Of a stretch of 64,000 nucleotides of DNA, positions 3,454-63,115 are shown piece by piece; the first letter of the stretch is position 1, and the number at the start of each line of letters is the position of its first letter. Both the position numbers and the translations under genes were made by a program. Source of the DNA: Escherichia coli (GTDB lineage Bacteria; Pseudomonadota; Gammaproteobacteria; Enterobacterales; Enterobacteriaceae); assembly GCA_005400705.1 (NCBI GenBank), contig GCA_005400705.1_4079.1. One strand, written 5' to 3'. The notes under the pieces are model-generated. The model did not search any database. It saw nothing but the letters and a program-made list of their open reading frames with translations, and was not told where the DNA came from.

Positions 3454-3454
3454 T

Positions 3455-4028: not shown

Positions 4029-4040
4029 GAGTACTGATAT

Positions 4041-12164: not shown

Positions 12165-12364
12165 AGACGTTTCATTTTGACAGGCCGCAGGGGGGTCAAA
12201 AAAATTTCCGCTGAAAAACATGCTAAGGTATATGTTTAATATAAAGTTTTATATTGTGTTTTTCAGAGTACAGTTTATGTTTCCTGAAACAAAAAAAAAA
12301 TACCCCGCCACCGAACGTGCTCCTTATATTGGAGTTTACCTTATTAATTATAGTAGAGATTAAG

Positions 12365-12742: not shown

Positions 12743-13098
12743 TGGAATTTGATTTTTTAATATCAGTACATTCTTTTAAGCACAGTTTTCAGTACTTTTG
12801 TAATTTAAACAAAGGTGATTTAATGCACAGTGCGAATGAGTATATTCATTTTACTGATGGTAAATTCTCATTTATTGATTACAGTTCATTAGATTTTCCA
12901 TACACTGATATGCCGGACTATACATTGATGGATGCTGGTGAACTATTTCAAGCTGCATTAGTATTTGACAAGAAGTACATCTGTACATTTGAAGAAGTAA
13001 TTACTATACAAAATGAAATGAAGGTGTATGCATCGTTGAATAAACCTAATGAATGTATTAATCAAGAATACAAATTCAATATAGGAATTCCAAAATGA
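12739..13098 (+). CDS. family B protein (subfamily B1)
   Basis: Core DAGELFQAALVFDKKYICTFEE; ATGA overlap. Confidence 0.7.
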   Translation: MMEFDFLISVHSFKHSFQYFCNLNKGDLMHSANEYIHFTDGKFSFIDYSSLDFPYTDMPDYTLMDAGELFQAALVFDKKYICTFEEVITIQNEMKVYASLNKPNECINQEYKFNIGIPK

Positions 13099-13454
13099 CA
13101 TATGATTATTCTATGTACTATTATAAGTTACCTAAAGGATGGGACTTGTGCTGTAATCTTATTAAGGGAGACTCGGAACATGAGTTGAGTTTATATATGC
13201 ACTACAAAGATTCTTGTTTTAAATTTATTCATGTATTACATGATGGCTATGACTATGAATCTGAGAGTCTTATAGATTATACAGTACTGGACGATGGTGA
13301 ACTATTTCAGGAAGCATTAGTGTTTGATAAGAATAAGTACTCCTGTACATTTGAAGAAATGGTTTCTTTGCAAAATGAAATGAAGAGATTTGAAAAAGAA
13401 AACGTATTTAATCCATCCCCATCAAGAACGAATAATTATTATTTCAATATATGA
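13095..13454 (+). CDS. family B protein (subfamily B1)
   Basis: Core DDGELFQEALVFDKNKYSCTFEE; ATGA overlap. Confidence 0.7.
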   Translation: MTYDYSMYYYKLPKGWDLCCNLIKGDSEHELSLYMHYKDSCFKFIHVLHDGYDYESESLIDYTVLDDGELFQEALVFDKNKYSCTFEEMVSLQNEMKRFEKENVFNPSPSRTNNYYFNI

Positions 13455-13463
13455 GATTATAAA

Positions 13464-13958
13464 ATGACATTACAGAGTTCATTGGAAAAAGCAAAGAAGA
13501 TTCATGAGTACATGAATATGGCAAAAGAAGGTTCAGTTTACGGTGTTTTCAAAGACACAAGTACTCAATATTATGTGCCGGATAACCTCCTTTATAATGA
13601 CTGCTCAGATACAGAAACGTGCGTACTGGATACAGAAACGTGCATACTAGATACCGACCCTAATGATTATGAATGTTTCATTGATATGCATAATGAGTAC
13701 ATGGTCTATATTAATGATGCAGATATTACCATATACAGTACTGACTGCGATTCCGATGACATTATAATTCCGAGTGAAGTACTAGAAGGTCAGTGGGATA
13801 GTGAAGAGTATTACTTCCAACAAAGTACTGTTTACGATGATGAAGTACTTGAAGTATTAGTTATTATGTGGTACTTTAAAAGTATTGGTTCTGGGAACTT
13901 CTATTTCGATTACAGATACGTAACGAAAACTGTAGATAACGGTATTAACAGGGGTTGA
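13464..13958 (+). CDS. family B protein (subfamily B2)
   Basis: N-terminus MTLQSSLEKAKKIHEYM; core WDSEEYYFQQSTVYDDEVLEVLVIMWYFKS. Confidence 0.7.
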   Translation: MTLQSSLEKAKKIHEYMNMAKEGSVYGVFKDTSTQYYVPDNLLYNDCSDTETCVLDTETCILDTDPNDYECFIDMHNEYMVYINDADITIYSTDCDSDDIIIPSEVLEGQWDSEEYYFQQSTVYDDEVLEVLVIMWYFKSIGSGNFYFDYRYVTKTVDNGINRG

Positions 13959-13959
13959 A

Positions 13960-14430
13960 ATGAGTTTAGAAAGAGCATTAGAGATTGCGAAGTTAATTGA
14001 TTTATGCAGCAAAGAAATTGTATCAAATTGTCTCAATGGATATCTATTCAAGGAAGGTAAATCATATTGTCGAATGATATACGATGACAGTAGTGAATAT
14101 ATCCATATGTATGAAGAAAACTTAGATGATTCTGACATAGTACTCACAGGATGTGATGTTAATTTGGAAGATAATTACATGTACTTCTGCCGTGATGCTG
14201 ATATTTTAATCCAAGATTCATTAATTCAAACAGGTGCACCAGAGGTATATCTTCCGTATTCAGTACTGGATAATAACTGGGGTAGTGAAGATTACTATTT
14301 CCAGCAGAGTACTATATATAATGAAGATATACTTGACAAACTTGTTATTTCTTGGTACTTTCATAACACGGATTATAGTAGCTTCTACATAGACTTGGAT
14401 CTACTAAGAGTACTTAAAGAGGATATATGA
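13960..14430 (+). CDS. family B protein (subfamily B2)
   Basis: N-terminus MSLERALEIAK; core EDYYFQQSTIYNED. Confidence 0.7.
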   Translation: MSLERALEIAKLIDLCSKEIVSNCLNGYLFKEGKSYCRMIYDDSSEYIHMYEENLDDSDIVLTGCDVNLEDNYMYFCRDADILIQDSLIQTGAPEVYLPYSVLDNNWGSEDYYFQQSTIYNEDILDKLVISWYFHNTDYSSFYIDLDLLRVLKEDI

Positions 14431-14867
14431 GTTTAGAAAAAGCACTAGAACTAGCCAACAAAATACATCAGTACCATGATAAAATAAAAAGTGGGTTCTA
14501 TGCTGATAAAGTACATGCATATGGGAATGAATATTACCTCACTGGAGTAAAGAGATACTCTAATGATATTTTACTTATGGGTCATGATAAAGACAATAAT
14601 ATACAGTACTCTTCATGTAGTCAATATACTAGTTTTATGGTATATATTCCTGGTACTAAGATTACTTTTGACACATCAAATACACCTGTTGACTTCGGAG
14701 TACTTGATGGCCCGTGGGGTACTGAAGAGTATTACTTCCAACAGAGTCTCATTTTTAACCAAGAAATGCTTGATTCCTTGGTTGTGTTGTGGTACTTTAA
14801 GGAATTGAATTTTGAACCATTCTTTCTTGACTGGGGATCATGTGAGTATTTAATTTCAGGGGAATAA
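14427..14867 (+). CDS. family B protein (subfamily B2)
   Basis: N-terminus MSLEKALELANK; core EEYYFQQSLIFNQE. Confidence 0.7.
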   Translation: MSLEKALELANKIHQYHDKIKSGFYADKVHAYGNEYYLTGVKRYSNDILLMGHDKDNNIQYSSCSQYTSFMVYIPGTKITFDTSNTPVDFGVLDGPWGTEEYYFQQSLIFNQEMLDSLVVLWYFKELNFEPFFLDWGSCEYLISGE

Positions 14868-14869
14868 TA

Positions 14870-15358
14870 ATGTCATTACAAAGTGCATTGAAAGAAGCAA
14901 AGAAAATTCATGAGTACATGATTATGGTACAGGAAGGTTCAGTACCAGGTGTATACAAAACATCAGATACGGAATTCTTCGTTAAGGATAGAGATGATTA
15001 TGACGAATCAGAGGTATGTGCAGAAACATTAGTACTGCACACTGATACTGGTGACAGTGATAACTGTGAATATCATATGTACAACCAGTACATTAGTTAT
15101 TGCCGTAATGAAGATATTACCATCTACAACACAGATAGTGATGCTGATGACACTATCATTCCTTATTCAGTACTGGAAGGTCAGTGGGATAGTGAAGAAT
15201 ATTACTTCCAGAATAGTACTATCTACAATGAAGAAGAACTGGATGTTATTGTGATTATGTGGTATTTCAAAAGTATTGACTCCAGTAGTTTCTATTTTGA
15301 TTATGAATATGTAGAGAATACAGTAGGAGAAGGTAATGTCATTACAAAGTGCTCTTGA
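14870..15358 (+). CDS. family B protein (subfamily B2)
   Basis: N-terminus MSLQSALKEAKKIHEYM; core EEYYFQNSTIYNEE. Confidence 0.7.
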   Translation: MSLQSALKEAKKIHEYMIMVQEGSVPGVYKTSDTEFFVKDRDDYDESEVCAETLVLHTDTGDSDNCEYHMYNQYISYCRNEDITIYNTDSDADDTIIPYSVLEGQWDSEEYYFQNSTIYNEEELDVIVIMWYFKSIDSSSFYFDYEYVENTVGEGNVITKCS

Positions 15359-15788
15359 AAAAGCAAAAGAACTACATGGATACTTTGAAGATATAAAGGC
15401 CGGAAAGTTCAAAGAAGTGTACAAAGCCGAGAACGGTAACTACTACAAAGATGAAATGTATAATAACTCCGTTAGTGTAAGGGTTATTCTTGGGTTGAAT
15501 TCCAATAGTCCTATATCGTTTTCTGAATACAATAGAGATGCAGAATTTATTAGTTATGTTGAAAATGGTAGCATTCGTTTTATTAATAGACAAAAACCAT
15601 TAATTTTGAATTATGAAGTACTGAATGGTCCGTGGAATAGTGAAGAGTATTACTTCCAAAACAGTACTGTATATGATGATGAAGTACTTGAAGCATTAGT
15701 TATTATGTGGTACTTCAAGAGTGTTAGCTGTCCTCGATTTTATTTGGATTTCGAAGATCTTCGTAAAGATCCAGAAGGTATAGAATGA
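15336..15788 (+). CDS. family B protein (subfamily B2)
   Basis: N-terminus MSLQSALEKAKELH; core EEYYFQNSTVYDDEVLEALVIMWYFKS. Confidence 0.7.
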   Translation: MSLQSALEKAKELHGYFEDIKAGKFKEVYKAENGNYYKDEMYNNSVSVRVILGLNSNSPISFSEYNRDAEFISYVENGSIRFINRQKPLILNYEVLNGPWNSEEYYFQNSTVYDDEVLEALVIMWYFKSVSCPRFYLDFEDLRKDPEGIE

Positions 15789-17386: not shown

Positions 17387-17582
17387 TCGAATTGAATACA
17401 TGAGAACTGTGAGTGCAGTGTGGGATATATGGTTCACTACTAAACCAAAAATGGATTACCATGACTTTAAGCTATTGTTCTTCATTGGCTCTAACAAACA
17501 GGATGTTGCAATGAAGGGTTATATTCAGCACTTACAGGAACTAATACAGAAGAGGGTTAATGAAAATAATAGACCAAGATGA
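17364..17582 (+). CDS. family A-like small protein
   Basis: Motif FIGSNKQDVA; start could instead be ATG 17400. Confidence 0.5.
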   Translation: MKYSKTFNRIEYMRTVSAVWDIWFTTKPKMDYHDFKLLFFIGSNKQDVAMKGYIQHLQELIQKRVNENNRPR

Positions 17583-17751
17583 TATTGCTAAACTATTCAA
17601 TATATATTCTACTAGAATGATGCAAACAGACTCATATAGTACTGAATTCAAAGAGTTGAAAGTACTGATGTACTTGGGAACCCAATATCAGGAACAAGTT
17701 ATTTTGGAATATATTAATTCGTTGAAGAAGGATATCCGTTATGTACGATGA
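17560..17751 (+). CDS. family A small protein
   Basis: Motif YLGTQYQEQV; isolated inside the B array. Confidence 0.6.
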   Translation: MKIIDQDDIAKLFNIYSTRMMQTDSYSTEFKELKVLMYLGTQYQEQVILEYINSLKKDIRYVR

Positions 17752-18301
17752 TTTAGATCTTGCGTTTGAACGTATGGTAATTTTAATGCAATGTGCAGAA
17801 ATGCATGAAACAATCCGTCGCACCAAAGGGATTGAATATACAAGTAAACTATTCTCATACGAAAGTCGTCGAGGGATGGATCATTTTTACTGCACTGATT
17901 GTTCAAAGTTTTCAGTACTGAAATATTATCATCCTACTGTTTCCAATAATAGTTTAATATCCACATATGATGGTGATCTGTTTAGTGTAATGTATGACAC
18001 ATTACATCCATCAATTTCAATCTATAAAGATTGCGATAGTAGTTTATCGTATATAATTGAAGATTACTTATCTCCTAATACTGAAGAGAATATTTTTCAG
18101 AACAGTGTGTTGCATGATGAATTAAGTATAAAATGCATCTATATGTTCAATAAGTTAAAAGAGTACGCCGATAATAATTACTTCATTGATGATTTAGCGG
18201 TATTGTCTGTTTCCGTTTTTAATACAAATGATATTGATATGAAATACTATAATGAGATTTGTAAAGTACATCATATGTATAAGGAACTATTATGTCAATA
18301 A
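17741..18301 (+). CDS. family B protein
   Basis: Core EENIFQNSVLHD. Confidence 0.65.
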   Translation: MYDDLDLAFERMVILMQCAEMHETIRRTKGIEYTSKLFSYESRRGMDHFYCTDCSKFSVLKYYHPTVSNNSLISTYDGDLFSVMYDTLHPSISIYKDCDSSLSYIIEDYLSPNTEENIFQNSVLHDELSIKCIYMFNKLKEYADNNYFIDDLAVLSVSVFNTNDIDMKYYNEICKVHHMYKELLCQ

Positions 18302-18894
18302 ATGCAAATAAATGTTGTAGTGCAAATGTGCATTTGTTTTTTAAGAAATTAGCAAATGATATTATATATATGCAGGAAATGATTTATCACAAACGAGCGG
18401 ATTTAGAAAAAGCATTAGTACAGTTCTCATTTATGCTTGATGGTGATATATTTCTAGAGAGTGATGCATTGCGAATAGTATTAGACAAAAATGCTAAAAG
18501 ATTTTTATTTCATATAGATAATAAATTATGTTCCTCCGTATGTCGTACTTTTTATAATCGTGATTCGGACTTATATCAATTCCTTTATTCCAAAGGTGCA
18601 GTAGAAGCATCATATGGTGATGGTTATGCCCTAGGAAAGAGTATTCCATTTATGAAATCATTTAAAATAGAACACATCAGTACTGATGAAGATGCAATGT
18701 TCACAAATGATATAACTATGGGACGTGAAGATGCAATGCGATATATTACAAATTCTATGCATACATTCTTTCAACGAACAGAATTTGATAATGTATATAT
18801 ATCAAATGTAAATATTTTCAATGACCTGTGTCAGTACTTGAGAAGTGTTTGTGACTTCGATGAAAGTTATTGTAAGCTATACACTGAGGTATAA
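18292..18894 (+). CDS. hypothetical protein (degenerate family B-like)
   Basis: 200-aa tiling ORF; weak core DAMFTNDIT. Confidence 0.5.
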   Translation: MSINANKCCSANVHLFFKKLANDIIYMQEMIYHKRADLEKALVQFSFMLDGDIFLESDALRIVLDKNAKRFLFHIDNKLCSSVCRTFYNRDSDLYQFLYSKGAVEASYGDGYALGKSIPFMKSFKIEHISTDEDAMFTNDITMGREDAMRYITNSMHTFFQRTEFDNVYISNVNIFNDLCQYLRSVCDFDESYCKLYTEV

Positions 18895-18899
18895 AACAA

Positions 18900-19262
18900 A
18901 TGAACACATTAAGTATTACATACTATACAACTAAAAAATTAGTTACTTGTTTAATATCTTTGAAGACAAACCATGATGATATGTTTGATATGGCTGCATA
19001 TGAATTAGAATTATCAGAAGATGGCTTCAAGAGCTATGAATTATATAGCTATGTCCGTGAAGATGTAATTGACACTACACTAATGCAAGAGGATGAGTTA
19101 TTCCAAGAAAGTTTAGTATGGGATAATAAGTACGATTGTAACTTTGATTTCTTATGTTTAATCCAGAAAGAAATGAAAAGAATCTTTGATAATTATCCAA
19201 TCAAACGTTTCAGTACTGCACCTGAGCAATATAAAAGGATTATATTCACCTATGAAGATTGA
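18900..19262 (+). CDS. family B protein
   Basis: Core EDELFQESLVWDNKY. Confidence 0.65.
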   Translation: MNTLSITYYTTKKLVTCLISLKTNHDDMFDMAAYELELSEDGFKSYELYSYVREDVIDTTLMQEDELFQESLVWDNKYDCNFDFLCLIQKEMKRIFDNYPIKRFSTAPEQYKRIIFTYED

Positions 19263-19629
19263 ATTTGAAGTTATTACATATAGTATAGGTGATGGTATCC
19301 GTTGCTATGTACAAGCAAGGCATATGGTTCCTGATGATAAACTGTCACCCAAAAGCTTCTGTATCACACAAGATCTCTTAGATATCAACGGAGAGTACAA
19401 GTACATATATTATCTTACTAAGGGTTATTGTAGTACACGTGGTTTTAATATTGTAGCTGTTTCTAGAGATGAAATTGATGATTTAACTGAGTACGGGGAA
19501 GAAGAGATGTTCCAGTACAGTACTGTTTTTAATGAACTGGATGTGTTTCTGTTACGAAAAATACAACACATTATGCAAAAATGTTTGCATCATAAGAGAG
19601 GTATTGTATGCGACGTGAATCTGAATTAG
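19252..19629 (+). CDS. family B protein
   Basis: ATG 19252 overlapping upstream end; core EEEMFQYSTVFN. Confidence 0.6.
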   Translation: MKIEFEVITYSIGDGIRCYVQARHMVPDDKLSPKSFCITQDLLDINGEYKYIYYLTKGYCSTRGFNIVAVSRDEIDDLTEYGEEEMFQYSTVFNELDVFLLRKIQHIMQKCLHHKRGIVCDVNLN

Positions 19630-19949
19630 TTAAAGTAATGTACGCTACTCATATTAAACTACTACTTGTTAAATTTGATTATAATAAAAAACATAATGAT
19701 TTCTATACTTTAATTCGTGATGAAAATACATTCTCCTTGCGATGCAACAATATACCCTTGAAGATAAATGATTTTACTTCACTTGACGAGGGGGAATTAT
19801 TTCAAGAATCATTAGTTTTTAATAGTAATATAAAAATTGATATAGAAGTTATTAAAAAATACCAGATTCTATTGAACAAAATTATGAATTGTTATCCATG
19901 TGAAATAGGTGGTCATATGCAGTTCAAATCAAAAATGTATGAATTATGA
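19608..19949 (+). CDS. family B protein
   Basis: Core EGELFQESLVFN. Confidence 0.65.
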   Translation: MRRESELVKVMYATHIKLLLVKFDYNKKHNDFYTLIRDENTFSLRCNNIPLKINDFTSLDEGELFQESLVFNSNIKIDIEVIKKYQILLNKIMNCYPCEIGGHMQFKSKMYEL

Positions 19950-19956
19950 GGTTTAT

Positions 19957-20493
19957 ATGTTAGATAAAAAAATGAACTCTGGAACCCAATATAATCATCT
20001 TAAGTTGGATACATTCGAATCAGCTATCAGTACAGCACAAGATATAATTGATATTATCAAGTTCATTAAAGAAGATAAGTTCAAATGTTTGAAAATACTA
20101 AATCGTTCAATGTACCGTGATAAAAATATTCATGTATCAGTACGTAGACCGAAAGATCAAGAAAGTGGGAGAGATTTCTATAACAACAGTGAGCAGTTCG
20201 AATGTGAATATGATCCAGAATTTAGAGGTGGTTTCATGTGTTACTGTATGAAGGATACCTCACACATTGAGATACGTTCATCGAAAGGTGGCATACGTAC
20301 ATTAGAGTTTATTGATATAGTTTTAAATCAGGAATACTACTTTCAACTATCATTATTGTTTCCTGCATACGATTTAGGAGTTCTATTCATGTATAAGTAC
20401 TTTTATGAGCACTGGAATGAAGACTTCTATCTGGACTTAGAAGATTACCAATTAGTTTGGAAAGAAATGGTAAAACTTCGCAACCCATCTTGA
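19957..20493 (+). CDS. family B protein
   Basis: ATG 19957 with GAGG upstream; core NQEYYFQLSLLF. Confidence 0.6.
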   Translation: MLDKKMNSGTQYNHLKLDTFESAISTAQDIIDIIKFIKEDKFKCLKILNRSMYRDKNIHVSVRRPKDQESGRDFYNNSEQFECEYDPEFRGGFMCYCMKDTSHIEIRSSKGGIRTLEFIDIVLNQEYYFQLSLLFPAYDLGVLFMYKYFYEHWNEDFYLDLEDYQLVWKEMVKLRNPS

Positions 20494-20519
20494 CACCCTC
20501 CGATTCTTTGTGATATAAT
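20490..20519 (+). promoter_or_regulatory. sigma70-like promoter with extended -10 (TTGACA-18-TGATATAAT)
   Basis: -35 TTGACA 20490-20495, -10 TATAAT 20514-20519 preceded by TGA; the box forms the 5' arm of a 9-bp inverted repeat GTGATATAA / TTATATCAC whose 3' arm abuts ATG 20553. Confidence 0.65.
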
Positions 20520-20552
20520 CTCTTTATATTAATTGTAAAGGGTTATATCACA

Positions 20553-21035
20553 ATGTCCAAAGACCTATCATTTAGCAATGCACAAAAAATCGCACAAAAT
20601 ATCATTAAACTTCATAAGTTCCTTTTAACAGTTAAAGAGAATATAATTCTCCCACGATGCACACTTTATGCGTACAAAAATTATTTGTCAATGAATAGCA
20701 ATTTGTTGCATACTACAGATGAGAATTTCTGTGGTATTCGTGTACTTGACGATGCACCAACAGGGGATTTTATCTCATATTGTTTCCATACATCTGATAG
20801 TTTTAAGTACTATCATCCTAGATTTAATGATGATGAATATGAATATGACACATTTAATGTTAGATCAGAAGAAGAATTCTTCCAGTACAGTACTTTGTAC
20901 AATGAGAGAATCGTGTTTAGTTCTACAATTTTTACAGTACTTAAAGATGAACTCAATGACGCAGATGATAGATTCTATATGGATTTAAACTTCGTAGATG
21001 AAATCATTGAGTACATGGAGAAAAATGGTCTATGA
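20553..21035 (+). CDS. family B protein
   Basis: Core EEEFFQYSTLYN; downstream of promoter. Confidence 0.65.
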   Translation: MSKDLSFSNAQKIAQNIIKLHKFLLTVKENIILPRCTLYAYKNYLSMNSNLLHTTDENFCGIRVLDDAPTGDFISYCFHTSDSFKYYHPRFNDDEYEYDTFNVRSEEEFFQYSTLYNERIVFSSTIFTVLKDELNDADDRFYMDLNFVDEIIEYMEKNGL

Positions 21036-21514
21036 TTACAACAGAATATGATTACGATGGTGTTTTAGAATTTGCATCTAACATTCATCGCATTGCAAAG
21101 GAGTTCAGAAGTCCCCAACCTTTCGGTGGAATGCCTTTTGGTGGAATGTTCCAATATGACCAATTCAGTTCAACCAAAGGAAGACTTGCCTTTAAAAATA
21201 ATAAGGGCAATCAAGTATATGCTGAGTTCTTTGACGATAATGACTTTCACTACAGAGCTGAATATATTTCATATTGTCAAGGGTCTGATTTGAAGATTAA
21301 CATTGATACATTTAGAGATTCAGTGTTTATCCCTTATAGTGAGTTAGTTTTCATGACAGAAGAAATGTACTTCCAAGGGTCTTGTATTCATGATGCAAAA
21401 GTACTTAATGCTATATTACTTTATGGTGCACTACTTCATCATTACAAATACAAACAACGATTCTTTATAGATTTAGTTGTATACCATCAATGCGTGGATT
21501 ATTTGAATGCATAA
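21032..21514 (+). CDS. family B protein
   Basis: Core EEMYFQGSCIHD; ATGA overlap. Confidence 0.65.
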   Translation: MITTEYDYDGVLEFASNIHRIAKEFRSPQPFGGMPFGGMFQYDQFSSTKGRLAFKNNKGNQVYAEFFDDNDFHYRAEYISYCQGSDLKINIDTFRDSVFIPYSELVFMTEEMYFQGSCIHDAKVLNAILLYGALLHHYKYKQRFFIDLVVYHQCVDYLNA

Positions 21515-21869
21515 TACAACAACAATTCAGTACATGACGGATGGCAATGATTGCTTTGCTTCAAGATATGAATTCATCAAGAACCATTTCGTAACCTATA
21601 TCCCTGAATATAATCAGTTTTATCTACAGATTTACCAAAATGATTCATATATGAATGAGATATATTCTGAAATAAAAATCCCTGATTATAGTACTTTATC
21701 AGAAGAGGAATTGTTTCAGGAGAGCACTGTCAATACTGAAGATGTGTACGAACTAATGGAATACCAGAAGGTACTTAAATATTTCCATGAAGTTCAGGAT
21801 ATACAAATGGATAGTGTTAAAACGTGGAATTATAACACATACGAGGTAAATTATGTTCGAAATGATTAA
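21507..21869 (+). CDS. family B protein
   Basis: Core EEELFQESTVN. Confidence 0.65.
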   Translation: MHNTTTIQYMTDGNDCFASRYEFIKNHFVTYIPEYNQFYLQIYQNDSYMNEIYSEIKIPDYSTLSEEELFQESTVNTEDVYELMEYQKVLKYFHEVQDIQMDSVKTWNYNTYEVNYVRND

Positions 21870-22266
21870 AATTATGCAACGATGCATTGTTGACCAACAT
21901 GGAATATATGGATATAGTTTAAGTGCAGCTATTGACAAAAACAAAACAACCTATGTAAGATATAATGCAGTACTTGGATTTGATATATTCATTGATGCTA
22001 ACAATAAAATCAAACAAGCTAAGGATGTGTCTATAATGACCCCTGACGAGTTATTTCAGTACAGCTTAGTTCTGCCCACCTGTATTGATTTACAACGCCT
22101 AGGAGCTATACAGAAGGTTTTACGCGAACATAAAGTACAACCAAATAAAATTACACACATCCCAGAAACATTCTACAAACCAATAGAAGTAGAAACACCT
22201 GATTATATGTTAAGTGATGATGAGTTCTACAAGAAACACTTCCCTGGTAAAGTTTGGAGAGAATAA
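21853..22266 (+). CDS. family B protein
   Basis: Core PDELFQYSLVL. Confidence 0.65.
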   Translation: MFEMIKIMQRCIVDQHGIYGYSLSAAIDKNKTTYVRYNAVLGFDIFIDANNKIKQAKDVSIMTPDELFQYSLVLPTCIDLQRLGAIQKVLREHKVQPNKITHIPETFYKPIEVETPDYMLSDDEFYKKHFPGKVWRE

Positions 22267-22748
22267 TGAACAGAAAGTACAGAGAAACTATGAAGTTCGC
22301 TAAGGAGTGTTTAGAGACAGTTGATTTCATTTTCGATAACAAAGACTCATTGGGTCGCCACTTCGTAATTACAAAGAAAGAAGATAAGAGATACAAATGT
22401 CAACGATTAGGATACAGTATTGAGTTCTCCTTAATGATTGACGGAATGATAAACTCCTTATATGAATGTGGTAAGACTGATTACATTTCATTTAGATCAT
22501 GGAGTGAAGGTATCATGTTCTTGAGAACAAATGGAGTTATATATCCTTTTATTGATGATTTATCAGAAGAAAGTTACTTTCAAAATACTTTAATTTACAC
22601 AGAAAAAGAACTCAAGATGCTATTCATTATGTCGTACTTTAAAAAGTACTGCAAATTTAAATCATTAGCTTTTGAGATTTCTGCAATGAAAGTATTCATT
22701 AAAAATGTAAAAGAATTAAAGAGGATTTACGATGTACATAGAAAATGA
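22266..22748 (+). CDS. family B protein
   Basis: ATG 22266 in TAATG overlap with upstream stop; core EESYFQNTLIY. Confidence 0.6.
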   Translation: MNRKYRETMKFAKECLETVDFIFDNKDSLGRHFVITKKEDKRYKCQRLGYSIEFSLMIDGMINSLYECGKTDYISFRSWSEGIMFLRTNGVIYPFIDDLSEESYFQNTLIYTEKELKMLFIMSYFKKYCKFKSLAFEISAMKVFIKNVKELKRIYDVHRK

Positions 22749-39029: not shown

Positions 39030-39292
39030 ATTATAAAGATTTCCTACTAACATACAAGATTATTCGAGATTTAGCACACGACAATGATAGCCCTAGTCTA
39101 GAAGACACATGCACTGAAATGATTCATACAATTCGTGGTAAGATTAAAAAAAAATTCAGTACTGTTATTATTGGTGATGACCATGCAGAATTTTCTGATA
39201 TAATCATTAGACGTGATGGTAAAGTTGAGGTTCAGTACTACACTGATTTTGGATTTACCAGTATTCCGTTGGAGATATTCCCTTGGGATTAA
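39026..39292 (+). CDS. family C small protein
   Basis: N-terminus MNYKDFLLTYKIIRDL; ATGA overlap. Confidence 0.6.
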   Translation: MNYKDFLLTYKIIRDLAHDNDSPSLEDTCTEMIHTIRGKIKKKFSTVIIGDDHAEFSDIIIRRDGKVEVQYYTDFGFTSIPLEIFPWD

Positions 39293-39594
39293 ATTTAAAT
39301 GATATACAATTCACTTATAAGATCCTATATGATTTGTATGATTTATACCTTGTTAGTAACAAAATAGGTTCACATAACTCATCCAAAGAACAACCATTTA
39401 TTGATTTATATATTGAGTACTTAGATTCAGTAGGTGAATATATAAAAAAGAATTACAGTACTTTTAACGATGGAAATGATATATTCGAGTTCTCTGGAGT
39501 TAAATCATACAATGGGATTATCCATGTTGAATTTCTTGAAATAACCGATAGGGGATTTATCGAGATTAAAGTTGTGAAGTTGGTGAATTTATAA
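39283..39594 (+). CDS. family C small protein
   Basis: LNDIQFTYKILYDLYD; apparent TTG start after GGAG. Confidence 0.5.
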   Translation: MGLNLNDIQFTYKILYDLYDLYLVSNKIGSHNSSKEQPFIDLYIEYLDSVGEYIKKNYSTFNDGNDIFEFSGVKSYNGIIHVEFLEITDRGFIEIKVVKLVNL

Positions 39595-39604
39595 GAGGTT
39601 ACAT

Positions 39605-39916
39605 ATGTTATTAAATGATATACAATTCACATACAAATTTTTGTATATCCAATACGCTACGGTTGATGCTGGAGAATATCTCTACGGTGAAATCTATCGT
39701 TCGGTATGGATAAAGTTTTTGGATGAATTACATGAATATTACCATGATTTGTGTATAGTTCGTGATAATAAAATATACAAATTCCGCGATATTGTTAGTC
39801 ATAGCGGTAAGCTACGATTGGAATTAAGTACTGATAGTGATGTTGATTGGATTGGTGTAAATTTACTGGAGTTGGAGAATGAAAAACAACTTAAAGGAAA
39901 TACAAGTATTTTATAA
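39605..39916 (+). CDS. family C small protein
   Basis: N-terminus MLLNDIQFTYKFLYIQY; RBS GAGG. Confidence 0.6.
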   Translation: MLLNDIQFTYKFLYIQYATVDAGEYLYGEIYRSVWIKFLDELHEYYHDLCIVRDNKIYKFRDIVSHSGKLRLELSTDSDVDWIGVNLLELENEKQLKGNTSIL

Positions 39917-40163
39917 ATTCTTATACTTGTCATATGTAAAAGATGAGTACTATGAAAGTGTGTATTATTTTTTATGGCAACATTACCGTACTATAGTAAG
40001 AGATTTATATATAGGAAAATCTATCATATCCAATGGTGAAAAATGTATATGTACTGATGTTGTTAGTTTTAATGGTTCTTTAACACTGTGTTTCAGATGC
40101 GATAATAATAGTGGGTCATTTTCATTAAACGTATATCAGTTAGAAGGAATAAATTTTGAATAA
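39879..40163 (+). CDS. family C small protein
   Basis: EIQVFYKFLYLSY. Confidence 0.55.
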   Translation: MKNNLKEIQVFYKFLYLSYVKDEYYESVYYFLWQHYRTIVRDLYIGKSIISNGEKCICTDVVSFNGSLTLCFRCDNNSGSFSLNVYQLEGINFE

Positions 40164-47468: not shown

Positions 47469-47508
47469 TAAAATAAATAGTGCATATATGACAAAAAGGA
47501 CTTTCTAT

Positions 47509-48195
47509 ATGCACTATTATATTATATATAAAATAACCAATTTAATTAATAATAAAATTTATATTGGTGCTCATATGACTGATGACATAAATGATGAATA
47601 TATGGGTTCAGGTGTTCTGATAAAGAAATCCATTAAGAAATATGGAATTGAAAAATTCAATAAAGAAATACTTTATATTTTTGATAATAAAGAAGAAATG
47701 TATAACAAAGAAAGAGAAATTGTTAATGAACAATTTATACAAAGAAGCGACACATATAACATCAAACGTGGTGGAGAAGGTGGCTACGGCGTAATTGATA
47801 AAGAAAATTGGAAAAAACAAATATCAACGGCACAAAAGAAGCGATATTCTTCAGGTGTTGTGGCTTGGAATAAAGGTAAATCTGTATCAGAAGAAACACG
47901 TATTCAAATGAGTCAGAGGATGAAAGGTCGTTTCCCTGGAGATAAAAATCCTATGCATGGTAAACCCTGTACATATAAAATGACAGATGAAGAAAAAACA
48001 TCATGGTCCAACAATATAAAGAAATCAAACACTGGTAAAAAGAGAACTGATGTTCAAAAACAAAAATATTCTTCGGTCGCGTCAAAACGAATTTGGTTAG
48101 TTCATAAAAGTGGTAAAGTTACTAATACACAAAATGAAAATGACCCACGTTTGAATGATCCAGATTGGCAACGTGGTCAAAAGTGGAGAGAATGA
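47509..48195 (+). CDS. GIY-YIG homing endonuclease
   Basis: YIIYKITNLINNKIYIGAH ... NIKRGGEGG motifs and NUMOD-like WNKGKS repeats; very AT-rich; start could be ATG 47488. Confidence 0.7.
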   Translation: MHYYIIYKITNLINNKIYIGAHMTDDINDEYMGSGVLIKKSIKKYGIEKFNKEILYIFDNKEEMYNKEREIVNEQFIQRSDTYNIKRGGEGGYGVIDKENWKKQISTAQKKRYSSGVVAWNKGKSVSEETRIQMSQRMKGRFPGDKNPMHGKPCTYKMTDEEKTSWSNNIKKSNTGKKRTDVQKQKYSSVASKRIWLVHKSGKVTNTQNENDPRLNDPDWQRGQKWRE

Positions 48196-57609: not shown

Positions 57610-58305
57610 ATGGTTGAACAATTCATGTTTGGTGGTTATGCTAATGGCGAAGTACGTAACATTTCTATTCCTTACGTAGTTGAGAAAGTTAATGGTTCAG
57701 AACGTACATATGATCTAGCATCTCGTATGATGCAAGACCGTATCATTTTCCTTGATACTGATTTCAATGATCAAATGGCACATATCATCAAACAACAATT
57801 GGTATGGTTAGACTCACAAGGTGATTCCCCTATTACATTCTACATTAGTTCACCGGGTGGTTCAGTACACGCAGGTTTGGGTATTGCAGATGTTGCTAAG
57901 TCTTGTATTTCGCCAATTCGCACTGTAGTAATGGGCTATGCAGCATCAATGGGTTGCTATACACAATCTGTTATTGGGACTAAAGGTTTCCGTTTAGGTG
58001 GTAAACGCTCATACTTCATGTGTCACCAAGTAAGTTCTGGTACACAAGGTCTAATTACAGACCAGAAGATTTCCCTACAACATTCTGATGCACTGAATAC
58101 ATTGTTGACCAAAGAAATTGCAGAAGCTGTAGGTGTATCACATGAACAATTACTAAAAGATGCTGACCGCGATTTGTGGTTAAATGCAGAAGAAGCACTT
58201 GAATATGGTGAACATGGTTTCATTGATGGTATTATTCTTGGTCCACGTAACGAAGAAGGCAAGTACTTAGTTAAGCGTCGCGGTGGTGTAGAAGAGTGGG
58301 TGTAA
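57610..58305 (+). CDS. clpP: ATP-dependent Clp protease proteolytic subunit (ClpP-like)
   Basis: ERIIFLD, ISSPGGSVHAG, GYAASMG (catalytic Ser) and downstream His (MCHQ) in ClpP order. Confidence 0.75.
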   Translation: MVEQFMFGGYANGEVRNISIPYVVEKVNGSERTYDLASRMMQDRIIFLDTDFNDQMAHIIKQQLVWLDSQGDSPITFYISSPGGSVHAGLGIADVAKSCISPIRTVVMGYAASMGCYTQSVIGTKGFRLGGKRSYFMCHQVSSGTQGLITDQKISLQHSDALNTLLTKEIAEAVGVSHEQLLKDADRDLWLNAEEALEYGEHGFIDGIILGPRNEEGKYLVKRRGGVEEWV

Positions 58306-59767: not shown

Positions 59768-60263
59768 TACTAATATCTGGTTAGATAACATAATCAAGAC
59801 ATTAGAATTAATTAAACTTACATTACAAAAAACTACAGATATTGAAATTAATATTAAAAAAGAAATATTAAACTATTATCATAGAAACAAATATAGCACG
59901 TTTATCTCTAAATTAATTTATGGATTATATGATATTGAAGATATTTGCATCGGTTACAGTACTGGTATTTGCTTCACTGTTAATGGTTTAAAAAATGATT
60001 TAAATTTCAGACTTTCCGATGAAGAGCAAAAGTTTCGTAGATTTTGTGATAATATTATGGATACAGATAAAATTACATTTGTTATTGAATTAAATCAAAC
60101 GTGGTCTACATATGCAGATAAACCATTTGAAATTAATGAAACAGATGTGTTAAACTATATTCGAGTTATGAAAATTCATGATTTGTGTAAAAACGCATTG
60201 TTAAGTATTGGAGCTTATAATGAAACATACGACTTGGTTGAAGATAGCAGAAGTAGTTGCTGA
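59739..60263 (+). CDS. hypothetical protein
   Basis: 174-aa ORF; overlaps both neighbours. Confidence 0.5.
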   Translation: MKYTHLSIDDTNIWLDNIIKTLELIKLTLQKTTDIEINIKKEILNYYHRNKYSTFISKLIYGLYDIEDICIGYSTGICFTVNGLKNDLNFRLSDEEQKFRRFCDNIMDTDKITFVIELNQTWSTYADKPFEINETDVLNYIRVMKIHDLCKNALLSIGAYNETYDLVEDSRSSC

Positions 60264-60699
60264 GGAAAGTAAATGTATTTCACAAAAAGTTGGTTGTGTT
60301 ATTGTTAAAAATAACCGAGTATTGAGTACTGGTTACAATGGTACTCCATCAAAACAACCAAATTGCTGTGATGTGAATCAACACTTAGTCAATGATGGGC
60401 GTTTTCAAGACTGGGTTAGTGATGAAGCAAAGCATGAACATCATGAGTGGAGTAATATTCATGAAATCCATGCTGAAATGAACGCTTTACTCTATAGTTC
60501 TCCTACTGAACGTCAAGGTGCTACTCTTTACACAACACTACAACCATGTTATACTTGTTCTAAGTTGATCGCAGGTAGTGGGATTTCACGTGTAATTTAT
60601 CTCAAAAATTATCCTCGTACACCACCAGAAGCTATTAAAGTACTGGAAGATGCTGGAATTATTGTTAATTGCATTTATGATAAGGGTCTTGATAAATGA
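60220..60699 (+). CDS. cd: dCMP deaminase
   Basis: Zinc-binding HAEMNAL and PCYTCSKLI motifs of cytidine/deoxycytidylate deaminases; ATG 60220 after GGAG. Confidence 0.8.
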   Translation: MKHTTWLKIAEVVAEESKCISQKVGCVIVKNNRVLSTGYNGTPSKQPNCCDVNQHLVNDGRFQDWVSDEAKHEHHEWSNIHEIHAEMNALLYSSPTERQGATLYTTLQPCYTCSKLIAGSGISRVIYLKNYPRTPPEAIKVLEDAGIIVNCIYDKGLDK

Positions 60700-60953
60700 C
60701 AGTAATAATTATTATTGCTTTTCTAATAACAGTGTTTTTCATTTTTATGTTATATATAGTTGCTATGGATGAACCTAATACTTCTTTTCGAAATTATGAA
60801 GTTCGTTTTTCTGCACAAAATAATAAGTACTATATTGTAAACTGTATACACCGTAGTGAGAAAAGGGTAACAAGTAGATTTGGATTTACCATTTATTATA
60901 AAGACCGAGTAGAAGCTGATATGATTTGTCAGAAGCTTAATACTGTAGAATAA
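60696..60953 (+). CDS. small membrane protein
   Basis: Hydrophobic N-terminus MTVIIIIAFLITVFFIFMLYIVAM; ATGA overlap. Confidence 0.55.
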   Translation: MTVIIIIAFLITVFFIFMLYIVAMDEPNTSFRNYEVRFSAQNNKYYIVNCIHRSEKRVTSRFGFTIYYKDRVEADMICQKLNTVE

Positions 60954-60981
60954 AAAAAGGAGCCGTATGGCTCCTTTTTTG
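60952..60981. terminator. bidirectional rho-independent terminator
   Basis: A-run, hairpin GGAGCC-gtat-GGCTCC, T-run; lies between convergent gene ends 60953 (+) and 60982 (-). Confidence 0.75.
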
Positions 60982-61359
60982 TTAACCAGGGAGGTTACAA
61001 TAATACAAATCCCAAGGGTGATATTTCATCGCACCAGTACTCAATTTAATTTTATGAAACTGGAATGATTCGGCAAATGCACTATCGTCAATCTTAATAC
61101 AAAAAGTGTTTTTGGCTAGAGTTGGTGCAATTTCCAATGCTGTTTTAGATGCATCTAATCTGATTTTATCTTTATCAAAACTTGTTATAGTTACAAAACG
61201 ATAAACATTAAAATCAGTGTCGATAAGATCGTAAACACAACTAGAACGTTGATTAAAGATGTTCAAGTTATATTTCAATTCACCGTTTATATTAGCTGCG
61301 GTTACACAAAACCCGCCGATATTGAATGGTAGTTTACCTTGTGCTGCGATAGCTTTCAT
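60982..61359 (-). CDS. hypothetical protein (only minus-strand gene in the window)
   Basis: 125-aa ORF with AAGGA upstream of its ATG on the minus strand; not antisense to any plus-strand gene. Confidence 0.6.
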   Translation of the reverse strand: MKAIAAQGKLPFNIGGFCVTAANINGELKYNLNIFNQRSSCVYDLIDTDFNVYRFVTITSFDKDKIRLDASKTALEIAPTLAKNTFCIKIDDSAFAESFQFHKIKLSTGAMKYHPWDLYYCNLPG

Positions 61360-61429
61360 ATTTTATTTCCTTTTTTAAATATAAGTATGAAATATATTTG
61401 TTTTTTACATCAGATGCACCATGAACTAG

Positions 61430-61458
61430 TTGACAAAACATCAGTGGTATGATATGAT
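61430..61458 (+). promoter_or_regulatory. sigma70-like promoter (TTGACA-17-TATGAT, TG-extended)
   Basis: -35 TTGACA 61430-61435, 17-nt spacer, -10 TATGAT 61453-61458 in context TGATATGAT. Confidence 0.55.
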
Positions 61459-61585
61459 CTGTTATAAACTGTACACCTTAAGTTTTATTTTTTAAAAATT
61501 TGAGTTAAGTACAGAAAAAGTTTGACTTAAGTGTTTAAGTACTATATTATTTATATCTTCCTAAACAAAATTGAGGACTTGTTAT

Positions 61586-62194
61586 ATGAAAAGACTATGG
61601 CTTGAAGTGATACAAGCAGCAATGTTTCTATTGTTAATAAATTTTCCAGCCAGTGCTGGTATTGAAAGTAAAAATGTGATAAAGTATAATCCTGAAACCC
61701 GAAATGTATATTTCATATCAGATATTACAGATGGGTCACTCAAGAGAATGATAGAGTTGTATGATAAAGAACACTATGATACCATCACAATTACATCTCC
61801 TGGTGGTGATTTTGATGCAGGTATTCGAATGGCAAACTTTGTTAGAGACAATGGGATAAATTTAATTGTTTCTAGGTATTGCAATTCAGCATGTACTGTG
61901 GTATTCTTTAGTGTATCTCCCGAAAAGCGATATATGACAAATCGCTCAGTACTGGGTCTTCATAACATTTCGATTAAAAGTAATGTTACTGATGGTGATA
62001 ATTCATTTGTATCTGTAAGACAGCTATCAACTTTTACCGAAGAAATGGCAACAAAGGTAGGTTTCCTTTTTTCACTATATGCAGCAAATGGAATCCCACC
62101 AGAAGTACTATTTAGAGTTAGTCGTTCTCGTGGTGAAGATGTTGTAATATTAACAAAACCAGAACTGGTTTTTTACGGTTCAGTCAAACAATAA
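61586..62194 (+). CDS. secreted ClpP-fold (S49/NfeD-like) serine peptidase candidate
   Basis: ATG 61586 after GAGGA; signal-peptide-like N-terminus with ASAG; ITSPGGDFDAGIRMANF ... CNSACTVVF resembles the ClpP/NfeD SPGG...AG...SA pattern. Confidence 0.4.
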   Translation: MKRLWLEVIQAAMFLLLINFPASAGIESKNVIKYNPETRNVYFISDITDGSLKRMIELYDKEHYDTITITSPGGDFDAGIRMANFVRDNGINLIVSRYCNSACTVVFFSVSPEKRYMTNRSVLGLHNISIKSNVTDGDNSFVSVRQLSTFTEEMATKVGFLFSLYAANGIPPEVLFRVSRSRGEDVVILTKPELVFYGSVKQ

Positions 62195-62264: not shown

Positions 62265-62525
62265 ATGACAAACATCCAAAACTTGACATCTATTATTTTT
62301 TATGCTACTGTAGTAATGTATGCTACAGTTATTTTTCTAACAGTTTTCATTTACAAAGATTATCGCAATGGCTTTATTGATCCAACTACAATGAAGTTCA
62401 ATTCAAAATTCGAAGCAATAATTTATTATGTACTATCAACTTCATACTTGGTGTGCCTAATGTTGTTAGGAGCACTAATTTATATCTTATACACAACATT
62501 ATTTGCAATTGGAGCTATTTTATGA
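62265..62525 (+). CDS. small membrane protein
   Basis: Three hydrophobic segments. Confidence 0.5.
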   Translation: MTNIQNLTSIIFYATVVMYATVIFLTVFIYKDYRNGFIDPTTMKFNSKFEAIIYYVLSTSYLVCLMLLGALIYILYTTLFAIGAIL

Positions 62526-63115
62526 CCTGTATTATTGCACACACTAACGGAGTAAGTTCTTTTATTGCTGGGGATAAGTTAGGAAGCAATGGATTTACAA
62601 AAACTGTTCAAACTGAACCAAAGGTATTCGAGAAAGAATTTATCAAGTTACATGATGATGGACTAACAAGAACTAAAGAAGTAATGGCATTGGGTTATAC
62701 TACATCATTTCGTATGGGTCAGTTGTTAAATTATAACCTTAATTTACCTGAACAAGATGCTAGTCAAACATTTTCACAATATTTGGTTCTTAAAGTTATT
62801 CCAATTATTCGTCAAATGTTTAAAGAAGAATGGGGTGCACGAGATGCATCACAAGATGTAGGTGGTGGACAATTTATCATTCTCCACAATCATACAATCT
62901 ATGAAGTTCAAGAAGACTTTTCAGTACTACAACCTAAAACAAGAATTACCGCAGTAGGTAGTGGGACATATCATGCAATTGCAGCAATGCAAGCATATAT
63001 TGAAGTTGAGAACGAATCTAAAAAACCACTACACGAACGTATCAAATCAATTTTTAAAATTGTTAGTGATAATGTAACAAGCGTAAGCGAAGAGTTTGAT
63101 GTTTTAAAATATTAA
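62522..63115 (+). CDS. HslV-like Ntn-hydrolase peptidase
   Basis: ATG 62522 in ATGA overlap; Thr at position 2 (MTCIIAHTNG...IAGD) and C-terminal ITAVGSGTYHAIAAMQAY resembling HslV GSGG...A...A. Confidence 0.5.
   Translation: MTCIIAHTNGVSSFIAGDKLGSNGFTKTVQTEPKVFEKEFIKLHDDGLTRTKEVMALGYTTSFRMGQLLNYNLNLPEQDASQTFSQYLVLKVIPIIRQMFKEEWGARDASQDVGGGQFIILHNHTIYEVQEDFSVLQPKTRITAVGSGTYHAIAAMQAYIEVENESKKPLHERIKSIFKIVSDNVTSVSEEFDVLKY

What the first reader, a model, noticed from the sequence alone, without database searches (positions are those of the whole stretch)
60952..61458. Single opposite-strand gene insulated by a bidirectional terminator and a divergent promoter region
Across 64 kb every credible gene is on the plus strand except 60982-61359. 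It is bounded at its 3' end by a symmetric A-run/hairpin/T-run terminator shared with the upstream plus-strand gene, and at its 5' end by a 210-bp AT-rich intergenic region that also carries the plus-strand TTGACA-17-TATGAT promoter. That layout is typical of a moron or independently regulated cassette.
Basis: seen in the sequence. Interest (0 to 1): 0.45.

Follow-up and report, generated by a model that had tools for sequence, protein, structure and literature searches.

The report
Late virion gene on opposite strand
The lone opposite-strand gene is a known, abundant virion protein of PBECO4/121Q-type jumbo coliphages, set up as its own late transcription unit with a T4-type late promoter and a two-way terminator; this is ordinary T4-style genome organisation, not a foreign "moron" insert.

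Summary
Gene 60982-61359 is the only real minus-strand gene in the 64 kb. A symmetric A7-hairpin-T6 terminator (60952-60980) sits between it and the convergent plus-strand gene, and a 226-bp AT-rich spacer lies upstream.

The moron reading does not hold. The window is an Asteriusvirus jumbo coliphage, 99% identical to SP27, PBECO4 and phAPEC6. The 125-aa product is 99% identical to phAPEC6 gp347 (97.6% to 121Q gp471). Mass spectrometry found gp347 in virions at 75% sequence coverage, the highest of 62 proteins. Composition and codon usage are typical of the phage. Homologues occupy the same slot, also antisense, in five other phage lineages.

The T4 late-promoter octamer TATAAATA occurs once in the whole window (about 15 expected), on the minus strand at 61548-61555, upstream of this gene. 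Its core ATAAATA is one of two invariant islands in the spacer across four diverged genomes. The conserved plus-strand promoter is TTGACT-17-TATTAT (61522-61550), and its -10 overlaps the late motif.

The protein is the N-terminal domain of a family whose longer members carry Ig-like arrays. It has no solved structural relative. Overall this is known biology of modest interest.

The parts
60696..60953 (+). Convergent upstream neighbour, an 85-aa protein of unknown function. It is the last gene of the plus-strand run that includes the dCMP deaminase gene (60208-60699).
   Evidence: ORF list. Matches phrog_19937 at E 1e-31. Orthologues lie next to the cassette in 121Q, G17, A4, CBB, Munch and L014.
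60952..60980 (.). Two-way intrinsic terminator: A7, GGAGCC, loop GTAT, GGCTCC, T6. It fills the 28-bp gap between the two convergent stop codons.
   Evidence: Sequence. Folding energy -20.4 and -19.1 kcal/mol on the two strands, z -4.2 and -5.3. G17 annotates a terminator at the same place. The same stem with varying loops follows the cassette in 121Q, EJP2, A4, CBB and L014. Munch (GGAGGCC/GGCCTCC) and RaK2 (GGAGAAC/GTTCTCC) have different stem sequences that still pair.
60982..61359 (-). Gene for a 125-aa virion protein, equivalent to phAPEC6 gp347 and 121Q gp471. It consists only of the N-terminal domain of a family found in RaK2-like jumbo phages.
   Evidence: phrog_33171 at E 6e-88, covering 125 of 125 positions. 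99.2% identical to proteins of 17 phage records. phAPEC6 gp347 was detected in virions with 8 unique peptides and 75.2% coverage (PMC7247149 Table 1). No Pfam match. AlphaFold2 model with mean pLDDT 90.
61368..61372 (-). Ribosome-binding site AAGGA, 8 nt upstream of the ATG.
   Evidence: Read directly from the sequence. The stretch AGGAAATAAAATATG is identical in 121Q.
61373..61547 (-). Predicted long 5' leader, about 180 nt. Roughly 61373-61480 aligns, with gaps, to the region that in 121Q holds gp472, a remnant of an upstream paralogue; I read this stretch as a decayed remnant.
   Evidence: Alignment with 121Q. 121Q gp472 (43 aa) matches the family HMM at E 4.6e-12. No open frame or tblastn match remains in the window. 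In A4 and L014 the same slot holds further full-length paralogues.
61430..61458 (+). It is specific to the PBECO4 lineage.
   Evidence: 11 of 12 positions match. Identical in G17 but absent from 121Q. It belongs to a population of strong sites that is strand-biased: 16 on the plus strand against 2 on the minus strand.
61522..61550 (+). Conserved sigma-70-like promoter TTGACT-17-TATTAT for the ClpP-like protease gene, with its -10 ending 35 nt before the ATG at 61586.
   Evidence: It lies in an 85-bp block that is 100% identical to 121Q. The -35 sequence (GTCAA on the other strand) is invariant in the window, 121Q, A4 and L014. A4 has TTGACA-17-TACTAT at the same place.
61548..61555 (-). T4-type late promoter octamer TATAAATA, 188 nt upstream of the ATG. 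It overlaps the -10 of the plus-strand promoter by 3 bp.
   Evidence: It is the only TATAAATA in 64 kb on either strand, against 15.0 +/- 3.7 expected. The ATAAATA core is invariant in four diverged genomes at the same spot. The motif precedes genes for mass-spectrometry-confirmed virion proteins across the phAPEC6 genome.
61586..62194 (+). Divergent neighbour, a ClpP-like protease of 202 aa.
   Evidence: phrog_26024 at E 4e-119 and a weak match to Pfam CLP_protease. Annotated as protease in 121Q, gp473.

Best explanation
The gene is a late gene for an abundant virion protein, placed antisense inside an early/middle gene block of a T4-like jumbo myovirus.

Proposed transcription. Late in infection, host RNA polymerase carrying the phage's gp55-like late sigma factor starts at the TATAAATA motif (61548-61555, minus strand). 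It reads through a leader of about 180 nt, transcribes the 125-aa gene and stops at the two-way terminator (60952-60980). The same hairpin stops plus-strand transcripts coming from the dCMP deaminase side. Plus-strand transcription then restarts at the sigma-70-like promoter(s) in the spacer.

Proposed protein role. The protein is the conserved N-terminal domain of a family specific to RaK2-like jumbo phages. Other members extend this domain with one or many Ig-like domains. I infer that the domain anchors the protein to the virion, so this is an anchor-only decoration protein.

What is shown and what is inferred. Shown: the gene, the terminator structure, the uniqueness and conservation of the motif, virion presence (published mass spectrometry on a 99% identical protein), and conserved position and orientation. 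Inferred: late timing, actual use of the distal promoter, the anchor role, and where in the virion the protein sits.
For: Identity: the window is 99% identical to SP27, PBECO4 and phAPEC6 over this region.

Virion protein: phAPEC6 gp347, 99.2% identical, was found in virions with 8 peptides and 75.2% coverage, the highest of 62 proteins. The CBB homologue CBB_112 was also found in virions.

Late promoter:
- TATAAATA occurs once in 64 kb against 15 expected, on the correct strand and upstream of this gene.
- Over 295 kb of this phage type, ATAAATA is about 4-fold depleted. 65% of its copies lie 15-70 nt upstream of a co-oriented start codon with a ribosome-binding site, against 10% for control 7-mers.
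- It precedes the genes for the major capsid protein, scaffold protein, prohead protease and tail sheath.
- The genome encodes a gp55-like late sigma factor.
- ATAAATA and the neighbour's -35 are the only invariant islands of the spacer in the window, 121Q, A4 and L014.
- No sigma-70-like site lies on the minus strand between 61360 and 61600.

Terminator.

Conserved antisense slot. The paralogue phAPEC6 gp077 has the same cassette design.

Domain architecture: the domain is always N-terminal, in proteins of roughly 100-1859 aa, followed by Big_2, Invasin_D3, Big_1 or other Ig-like arrays.
Against: - The late motif lies 188 nt from the ATG, outside the usual 15-70 nt. The same long distance (145-180 nt) is seen in 121Q, A4 and L014.
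- No transcript data exist for this phage group, so timing and start site are unproven.
- Mass-spectrometry coverage is only a rough guide to abundance. The protein's location (capsid or tail) and its binding partner are unknown.
- No structural analogue supports the anchor role.
Confidence: 0.8

Rival explanations
1. The gene is late and virion-associated, but it is transcribed from an unrecognised promoter close to the gene rather than from the distal TATAAATA. On this view the distal motif is a relic that once served an upstream paralogue, now deleted.
For: The 188-nt distance is atypical. The sequence in between aligns to the remnant of another gene in 121Q. AT-rich near-matches such as CAAATATA and TATATTTA lie 30-50 nt upstream of the ATG. 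In A4 an internal TATAAATA lies 36 nt upstream of a downstream cassette gene.
Against: No ATAAATA or sigma-70-like site exists on the minus strand between 61360 and 61547. The proximal region is not conserved with 121Q beyond the ribosome-binding site. The distal motif is invariant in four genomes while its surroundings diverge. I saw no terminator-like hairpin between it and the gene.
Confidence: 0.15
2. The gene is a moron: a horizontally acquired, autonomously expressed accessory gene inserted between phage genes.
For: It has its own promoter region and terminator, and it lies in the opposite orientation to its neighbours.
Against: Composition and codon usage are typical of the phage. The slot and orientation are conserved across genera. 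The product is in the virion. All phage-record homologues are in RaK2-like jumbo phages (71 records).
Confidence: 0.02
3. The gene is a truncated relic. It lost the C-terminal Ig-like part that its closest relatives carry, and it persists as a dispensable passenger in the virion without a role of its own.
For: The closest relatives (66-67% identity) are 312 and 538 aa long and continue beyond the ...CN(L/I)P motif, close to where the window protein ends (...CNLPG). In L014 the orthologue is split into two 162-aa ORFs. The slot shows repeated gain, loss and decay of paralogues.
Against: The protein is 97.6-99.2% identical over its full length in 22 phage records. It was detected at very high coverage in virions. 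Short forms with the domain alone (about 100-141 aa) recur in several subclades.
Confidence: 0.1

Closest known systems
phAPEC6 gp347, 121Q gp471 and the PBECO4 'virion structural protein' (phrog_33171)
   Same: This is the same protein: 99.2% identical to phAPEC6 gp347 and the PBECO4 protein, 97.6% to 121Q gp471. It has the same neighbours and orientation. Its presence in phAPEC6 virions is published.
   Different: Nothing of substance differs. The 121Q note 'Ig domain' is not borne out for this short protein (no Pfam match). 121Q keeps a 43-aa remnant of a paralogue (gp472) upstream, which has no open frame left in the window.
Phage T4 late transcription units (TATAAATA promoters read with gp55)
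   Same: The same octamer is present, and the genome encodes a gp55-like sigma factor. Late virion genes lie on the strand opposite to early and middle genes, which is the known T4 organisation (from my own knowledge). The motif is strongly avoided elsewhere in the genome.
   Different: The leader is unusually long, at 188 nt. The CBB paper reports no homologues of the T4 co-factors gp33 and gp45 in that relative. No transcript mapping exists for this group.
Ig-bearing phage decoration proteins such as T4 Hoc and T5 pb10
   Same: The family architecture is a virion-binding module plus exposed Ig-like domains (Big_2, Invasin_D3, Big_1). Members are found in virions. The comparison with Hoc and pb10 comes from my own knowledge and was not tested.
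Morons of lambdoid prophages
   Same: A single gene bracketed by its own promoter and terminator.
   Different: The composition is native, the position is conserved across genera, the product is structural, and the phage is a T4-like jumbo myovirus (virulent, as far as I know).
Two-way intrinsic terminators between convergent genes
   Same: A GC-rich hairpin flanked by an A-run and a T-run, placed between two convergent stop codons and usable from either strand.
   Different: Nothing differs in structure. Function is inferred from sequence and conservation only.

Membership tests
T4-type late transcription unit | TATAAATA-type promoter upstream of the gene and in the same orientation | tested here: met
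   The only TATAAATA in the window is at 61548-61555 on the minus strand. Its ATAAATA core is conserved in 121Q, A4 and L014. The distance of 188 nt is longer than usual.
T4-type late transcription unit | The phage encodes a gp55-like late sigma factor | tested here: met
   phAPEC6 gp237c matches phrog_234, 'late sigma transcription factor', at E 8e-18. The gene lies outside the window, in a genome that is 98.8% identical to the window over the 1.9-kb stretch compared.
T4-type late transcription unit | The motif marks late genes across the genome | tested here: met
   52 copies in 295 kb, against 207 for control 7-mers. 65% lie 15-70 nt upstream of co-oriented start codons, against 10% for controls. 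It precedes the capsid, scaffold, prohead protease and sheath genes.
T4-type late transcription unit | The transcript appears late and starts just downstream of the motif | not testable with these tools
   I found no RNA-seq or 5'-end data for Asteriusvirus in the papers I checked.
Moron | Nucleotide composition differs from that of the host phage | tested here: not met
   GC 33.6% against 32.0 +/- 3.3% for the other genes. GC3 26.4% against 27.4 +/- 5.4%. Codon-usage z -0.14.
Moron | Patchy presence: an insertion between genes that are adjacent in relatives | tested here: not met
   A family member occupies the slot, antisense, in every relative examined.
Moron | Own promoter and terminator | tested here: met
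   This feature is not specific to morons.
Ig-like-domain decoration proteins (Hoc- or pb10-like) | The protein contains an Ig-like domain | tested here: not met
   No Pfam match at E up to 1. The model resembles SH3/Tudor-like barrels rather than an Ig fold. Longer homologues do carry Big_2, Invasin_D3 or Big_1 domains.
Ig-like-domain decoration proteins (Hoc- or pb10-like) | Present in mature virions | tested here: met
   Published mass spectrometry for phAPEC6 gp347 and for CBB_112.
Ig-like-domain decoration proteins (Hoc- or pb10-like) | Binds the outer surface of the capsid or tail | not testable with these tools
   The 10-A phAPEC6 map leaves its capsid and tail decoration densities unassigned.
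Major tail protein (a label used in RefSeq for homologues) | Tail-tube fold | tested here: not met
phrog_33171 / phrog_10468 family of RaK2-like jumbo phages | Profile match over the N-terminal domain | tested here: met
   E 6e-88 to phrog_33171 and E 1e-12 to phrog_10468. 76 cluster representatives match at E up to 0.001; apart from two weak hits, the domain sits at the N-terminus in all of them.
Two-way intrinsic terminator | GC-rich hairpin flanked by an A-run and a T-run between convergent genes | tested here: met
   The position is conserved, and the RaK2 and Munch stems differ in sequence but still pair.
Two-way intrinsic terminator | Terminates transcription in both directions in vivo | not testable with these tools
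   This needs 3'-end mapping (term-seq).

The most novel reading that the evidence does not exclude
Two things together. (1) The back-to-back promoters act as a temporal toggle. The late TATAAATA overlaps the -10 of the conserved sigma-70-like promoter of the ClpP-like protease gene by 3 bp, so late-sigma polymerase could shut that promoter off as it turns the virion gene on. (2) The slot is a hotspot where a family of surface-display proteins expands and shrinks, all sharing one undescribed virion-anchor domain. The anchor-only 14-kDa form would then be one of the unassigned high-copy decoration densities seen on 121Q and phAPEC6 particles.
Probability: 0.15. Interest if true: 0.45.

Novelty: already known. 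Interest (0 to 1): 0.2.

Why it matters
The value is mainly in annotation.

- It corrects labels such as 'major tail protein', 'Ig domain' and 'Sir2-like' that are attached to this gene family in public records.
- It shows that a simple count of TATAAATA/ATAAATA separates late genes from the rest in these largely unannotated 350-kb genomes.
- It names gp347/gp471 as one candidate for the decoration densities left unassigned in the phAPEC6 and 121Q cryo-EM maps.
- The N-terminal domain has no Pfam entry and no solved relative, and would merit a family definition.

None of this changes how such phages are understood.

Tried and rejected
- Pfam on the 125-aa protein gave no match.
- A sequence search of the solved structures gave only chance-level matches.
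- The word-indexed protein search found only 2 relatives. The exhaustive search was needed to see the family.
- I looked for a paralogue in phAPEC6 at 50-250 kb (L006, L007, L008, L012) and found none. phAPEC6 gp253 (375 aa) and gp172 (220 aa) were suspects, but neither region gave a family match. The paralogue is gp077.
- The C-terminal part of P0012 (641 aa) has no counterpart in isolated phages.
- The phiKp24 cryo-EM paper has a different capsid geometry (T = 27) and a much larger capsid protein (597 aa), so I did not use it.
- The Sharanji paper has no promoter, transcript or proteome data.
- No tRNA genes and no Rfam matches in the window.
- The consensus terminator scan missed the real terminator.

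Full report
**What the window is.** The region around the finding is 99% identical at the DNA level to Escherichia phages SP27, PBECO4, slurp01, JP4 and phAPEC6, and 91% identical to 121Q. These are jumbo myoviruses of about 350 kb in the genus Asteriusvirus, part of the RaK2-like group.

**Check of the observation.**
- Plus-strand ORFs of at least 60 aa cover 94% of the 64 kb. The only minus-strand ORF of at least 50 aa that is not shadowed by them is 60982-61359. The minus ORFs after 63338 lie over a Sir2 gene that runs off the window end.
- GC skew dips below zero only over this gene.
- The gap between the convergent stop codons (60951-60953 and 60982-60984) is filled by A7-GGAGCC-GTAT-GGCTCC-T6. 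It folds at -20.4 and -19.1 kcal/mol on the two strands, z -4.2 and -5.3, and no shuffle folds as well. G17 annotates a terminator at the same place.
- The upstream spacer, 61360-61585, is 226 bp; GC of 61360-61570 is 22.7%.
- TTGACA-17-TATGAT is present at 61430-61458.

**What the gene encodes.**
- The 125-aa product matches phrog_33171, 'virion structural protein', end to end at E 6e-88. It has no Pfam match.
- It is 99.2% identical to proteins of 17 phage records and 97.6% identical to 121Q gp471.
- The phAPEC6 copy is gp347. Wagemans et al. 2020 (PMC7247149) found gp347 in purified virions with 8 unique peptides and 75.2% sequence coverage. That is the highest coverage of the 62 virion proteins, just above the major capsid protein at 74.9%.
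- The same paper describes a capsid protein layer present in as many copies as the capsid protein, plus capsid and tail decorations, none of which could be assigned to a gene.
- The CBB homologue CBB_112 was also detected in virions.

**The protein family.**
- An exhaustive profile search found 76 cluster representatives. Apart from two weak, probably spurious matches, the similarity covers the first 100-125 residues of each protein, while total lengths run from roughly 100 to 1859 aa.
- The C-terminal parts of the longer members are Big_2 (one to seven copies), Invasin_D3, Big_1 and other Ig-like domains.
- The window protein is therefore the shared N-terminal module alone. The closest relatives (66-67% identical) are 312 and 538 aa long and continue past the ...CN(L/I)P motif, close to where the window protein ends (...CNLPG).
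- AlphaFold2 with a 67-sequence alignment gives a confident, mostly beta model with mean pLDDT 90. Confidence is lower for the first ten residues. The columns conserved in at least 90% of sequences lie mostly in the first 45 residues, and several (I4, G16) fall in the N-terminal stretch that has no regular secondary structure.
- I infer that the domain is a virion anchor that displays Ig-like arrays in other members. This is an inference from architecture, not a demonstrated function.
- The labels 'major tail protein' and 'Ig domain' do not fit this short protein.

**Not a moron and not a recent inversion.**
- GC, GC3 and synonymous codon choice are typical of the phage's genes (z -0.14).
- A family member sits next to the small hypothetical gene and the dCMP deaminase gene, antisense to its neighbours, in 121Q, A4, EJP2, RaK2, CBB, Munch and a metagenomic contig.
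- The slot varies in content. It holds one gene in the window, one gene plus a 43-aa N-terminal remnant in 121Q (gp472, HMM E 4.6e-12), and three ORFs in L014 (637 aa plus two of 162 aa). A4 has four ORFs (two fragments, one of 722 aa and one of 124 aa), and EJP2 has two genes on either side of the protease gene.
- In the window, about 61373-61480 aligns with gaps to the 121Q gp472 region, and no open frame or tblastn match remains. I read this as a decayed remnant.

**The promoter.**
- The CBB paper reports an ATAAATA motif upstream of structural genes in CBB and GAP32, resembling the T4 late promoter TATAAATA, together with a gp55-like sigma factor (PMC5259590). phAPEC6 gp237c is such a factor (phrog_234, E 8e-18).
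- In the window, TATAAATA occurs exactly once on both strands together, against 15.0 +/- 3.7 in shuffles. That copy is on the minus strand at 61548-61555, upstream of the only minus-strand gene. The 7-mer ATAAATA occurs 3 times against about 51 expected.
- Over 295 kb (the window plus five phAPEC6 segments) ATAAATA occurs 52 times, against a mean of 207 for 7-mers of the same composition. 65% of its copies lie 15-70 nt upstream of a co-oriented start codon with a ribosome-binding site, against 10% for controls.
- It precedes the genes for the major capsid protein, scaffold, prohead protease, tail sheath and several other mass-spectrometry-confirmed proteins.
- The weak point is distance: 188 nt to the ATG here. 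The same placement, about 30 nt from the protease gene's ATG and 145-180 nt from the first cassette gene, holds in 121Q, A4 and L014.
- In a four-genome alignment the only invariant islands are ATAAATA and GTCAA, the latter being the -35 of the neighbour's promoter.
- No sigma-70-like site lies on the minus strand in the spacer.

**The plus-strand promoters.**
- The conserved site is TTGACT-17-TATTAT at 61522-61550, inside an 85-bp block that is 100% identical to 121Q. Its -10 overlaps the late octamer by 3 bp.
- The flagged site may still work. Sites matching at least 11 of 12 positions number 16 on the plus strand and 2 on the minus strand, so many are probably real.

**The terminator in relatives.** The cassette ends with the same GGAGCC...GGCTCC hairpin, with different loops, in 121Q, EJP2 (both genes), A4, CBB and L014. 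Munch and RaK2 have hairpins at the same position whose stem sequences differ but still pair.

**A recurring design.** The paralogue phAPEC6 gp077 (384 aa, phrog_10468, found in virions with 10 peptides) is also a lone antisense gene. It has AATAAATA 31 nt upstream and an A-run/hairpin/T-rich terminator downstream. gp193 and gp210-211 are further late-motif genes set against their neighbours. Placing late genes on the strand opposite to early and middle genes is the known T4 organisation (my own knowledge).

**Verdict.** The finding is real and well described, but ordinary. It is a known virion-protein gene organised as a T4-style late transcription unit, with a conserved two-way terminator and back-to-back promoters. 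Three things are not in the papers I read:
- the near-total avoidance of the late motif outside promoters;
- the overlap of the late and sigma-70-like -10 elements;
- the view of this slot as a place where a family with a shared, structurally uncharacterised N-terminal domain expands and shrinks.

I score interest at 0.2.

Noticed in passing
window 47473-48195 (+): A 228-aa homing endonuclease (phrog_314, E 1e-48; the N-terminus looks GIY-YIG-like by eye) has AATAAATA 29 nt upstream of its ATG at 47509. This is one of only three ATAAATA copies in the window, so the gene may be expressed late, as some T4 homing endonuclease genes are (from my own knowledge).
   Followed up: partly
window 1-64000, both strands: The late-promoter words are strongly avoided. 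TATAAATA occurs once against about 15 expected, and ATAAATA 3 times against about 51. The overlapping word ATAAATAT does not occur at all. This could serve as a simple classifier of late genes in RaK2-like genomes.
   Followed up: yes
window 1-64000: Strong sigma-70-like sites (at least 11 of 12 positions) number 16 on the plus strand and 2 on the minus strand. Many lie inside ORFs, which suggests many internal early or middle promoters.
   Followed up: partly
window 12157-12163 (+): The third ATAAATA copy overlaps the stop codon of ORF 11940-12164, about 100 nt upstream of the next ORF. I did not establish whether it acts as a promoter.
   Followed up: no
window 134-4256, 12254-15788, 17560-22748 and 39283-40163 (+): Tandem arrays of paralogous small genes: one family of 11 members of about 75 aa, one of 7 members of about 160 aa, one of 5 members, and several smaller sets (all-against-all BLASTP at E below 1e-5).
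   Followed up: partly
window 57610-58305, 61586-62194 and 62453-63115 (+): Three protease-like genes lie within 6 kb: a ClpP-type protease (Pfam E 4e-41), a second divergent ClpP-like protein and an HslV-like peptidase. A Sir2 gene follows from about 63347.
   Followed up: no
L001 6956-7087 (121Q gp472); window about 61373-61480: 121Q gp472, annotated 'hypothetical protein', is a 43-aa N-terminal remnant of a paralogue resembling the 640-aa family members (MGEPIAGQDQFPFTLGGYLVDG...). The window aligns to that region with gaps but keeps no open frame.
   Followed up: yes
L014 5001-5974: In a metagenomic relative, the closest homologue of the window protein is followed by an overlapping second 162-aa ORF. 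Together they may be a roughly 312-aa gene split by a frameshift, either real or a sequencing error.
   Followed up: no
public records OQ708376.1, MT939486.1, NC_019526.1 and others: Homologues carry inconsistent product names, such as 'putative Sir2-like protein', 'putative major capsid protein', 'major tail protein' and 'invasin/intimin-like protein'. The names I could test on the window protein are not supported.
   Followed up: partly
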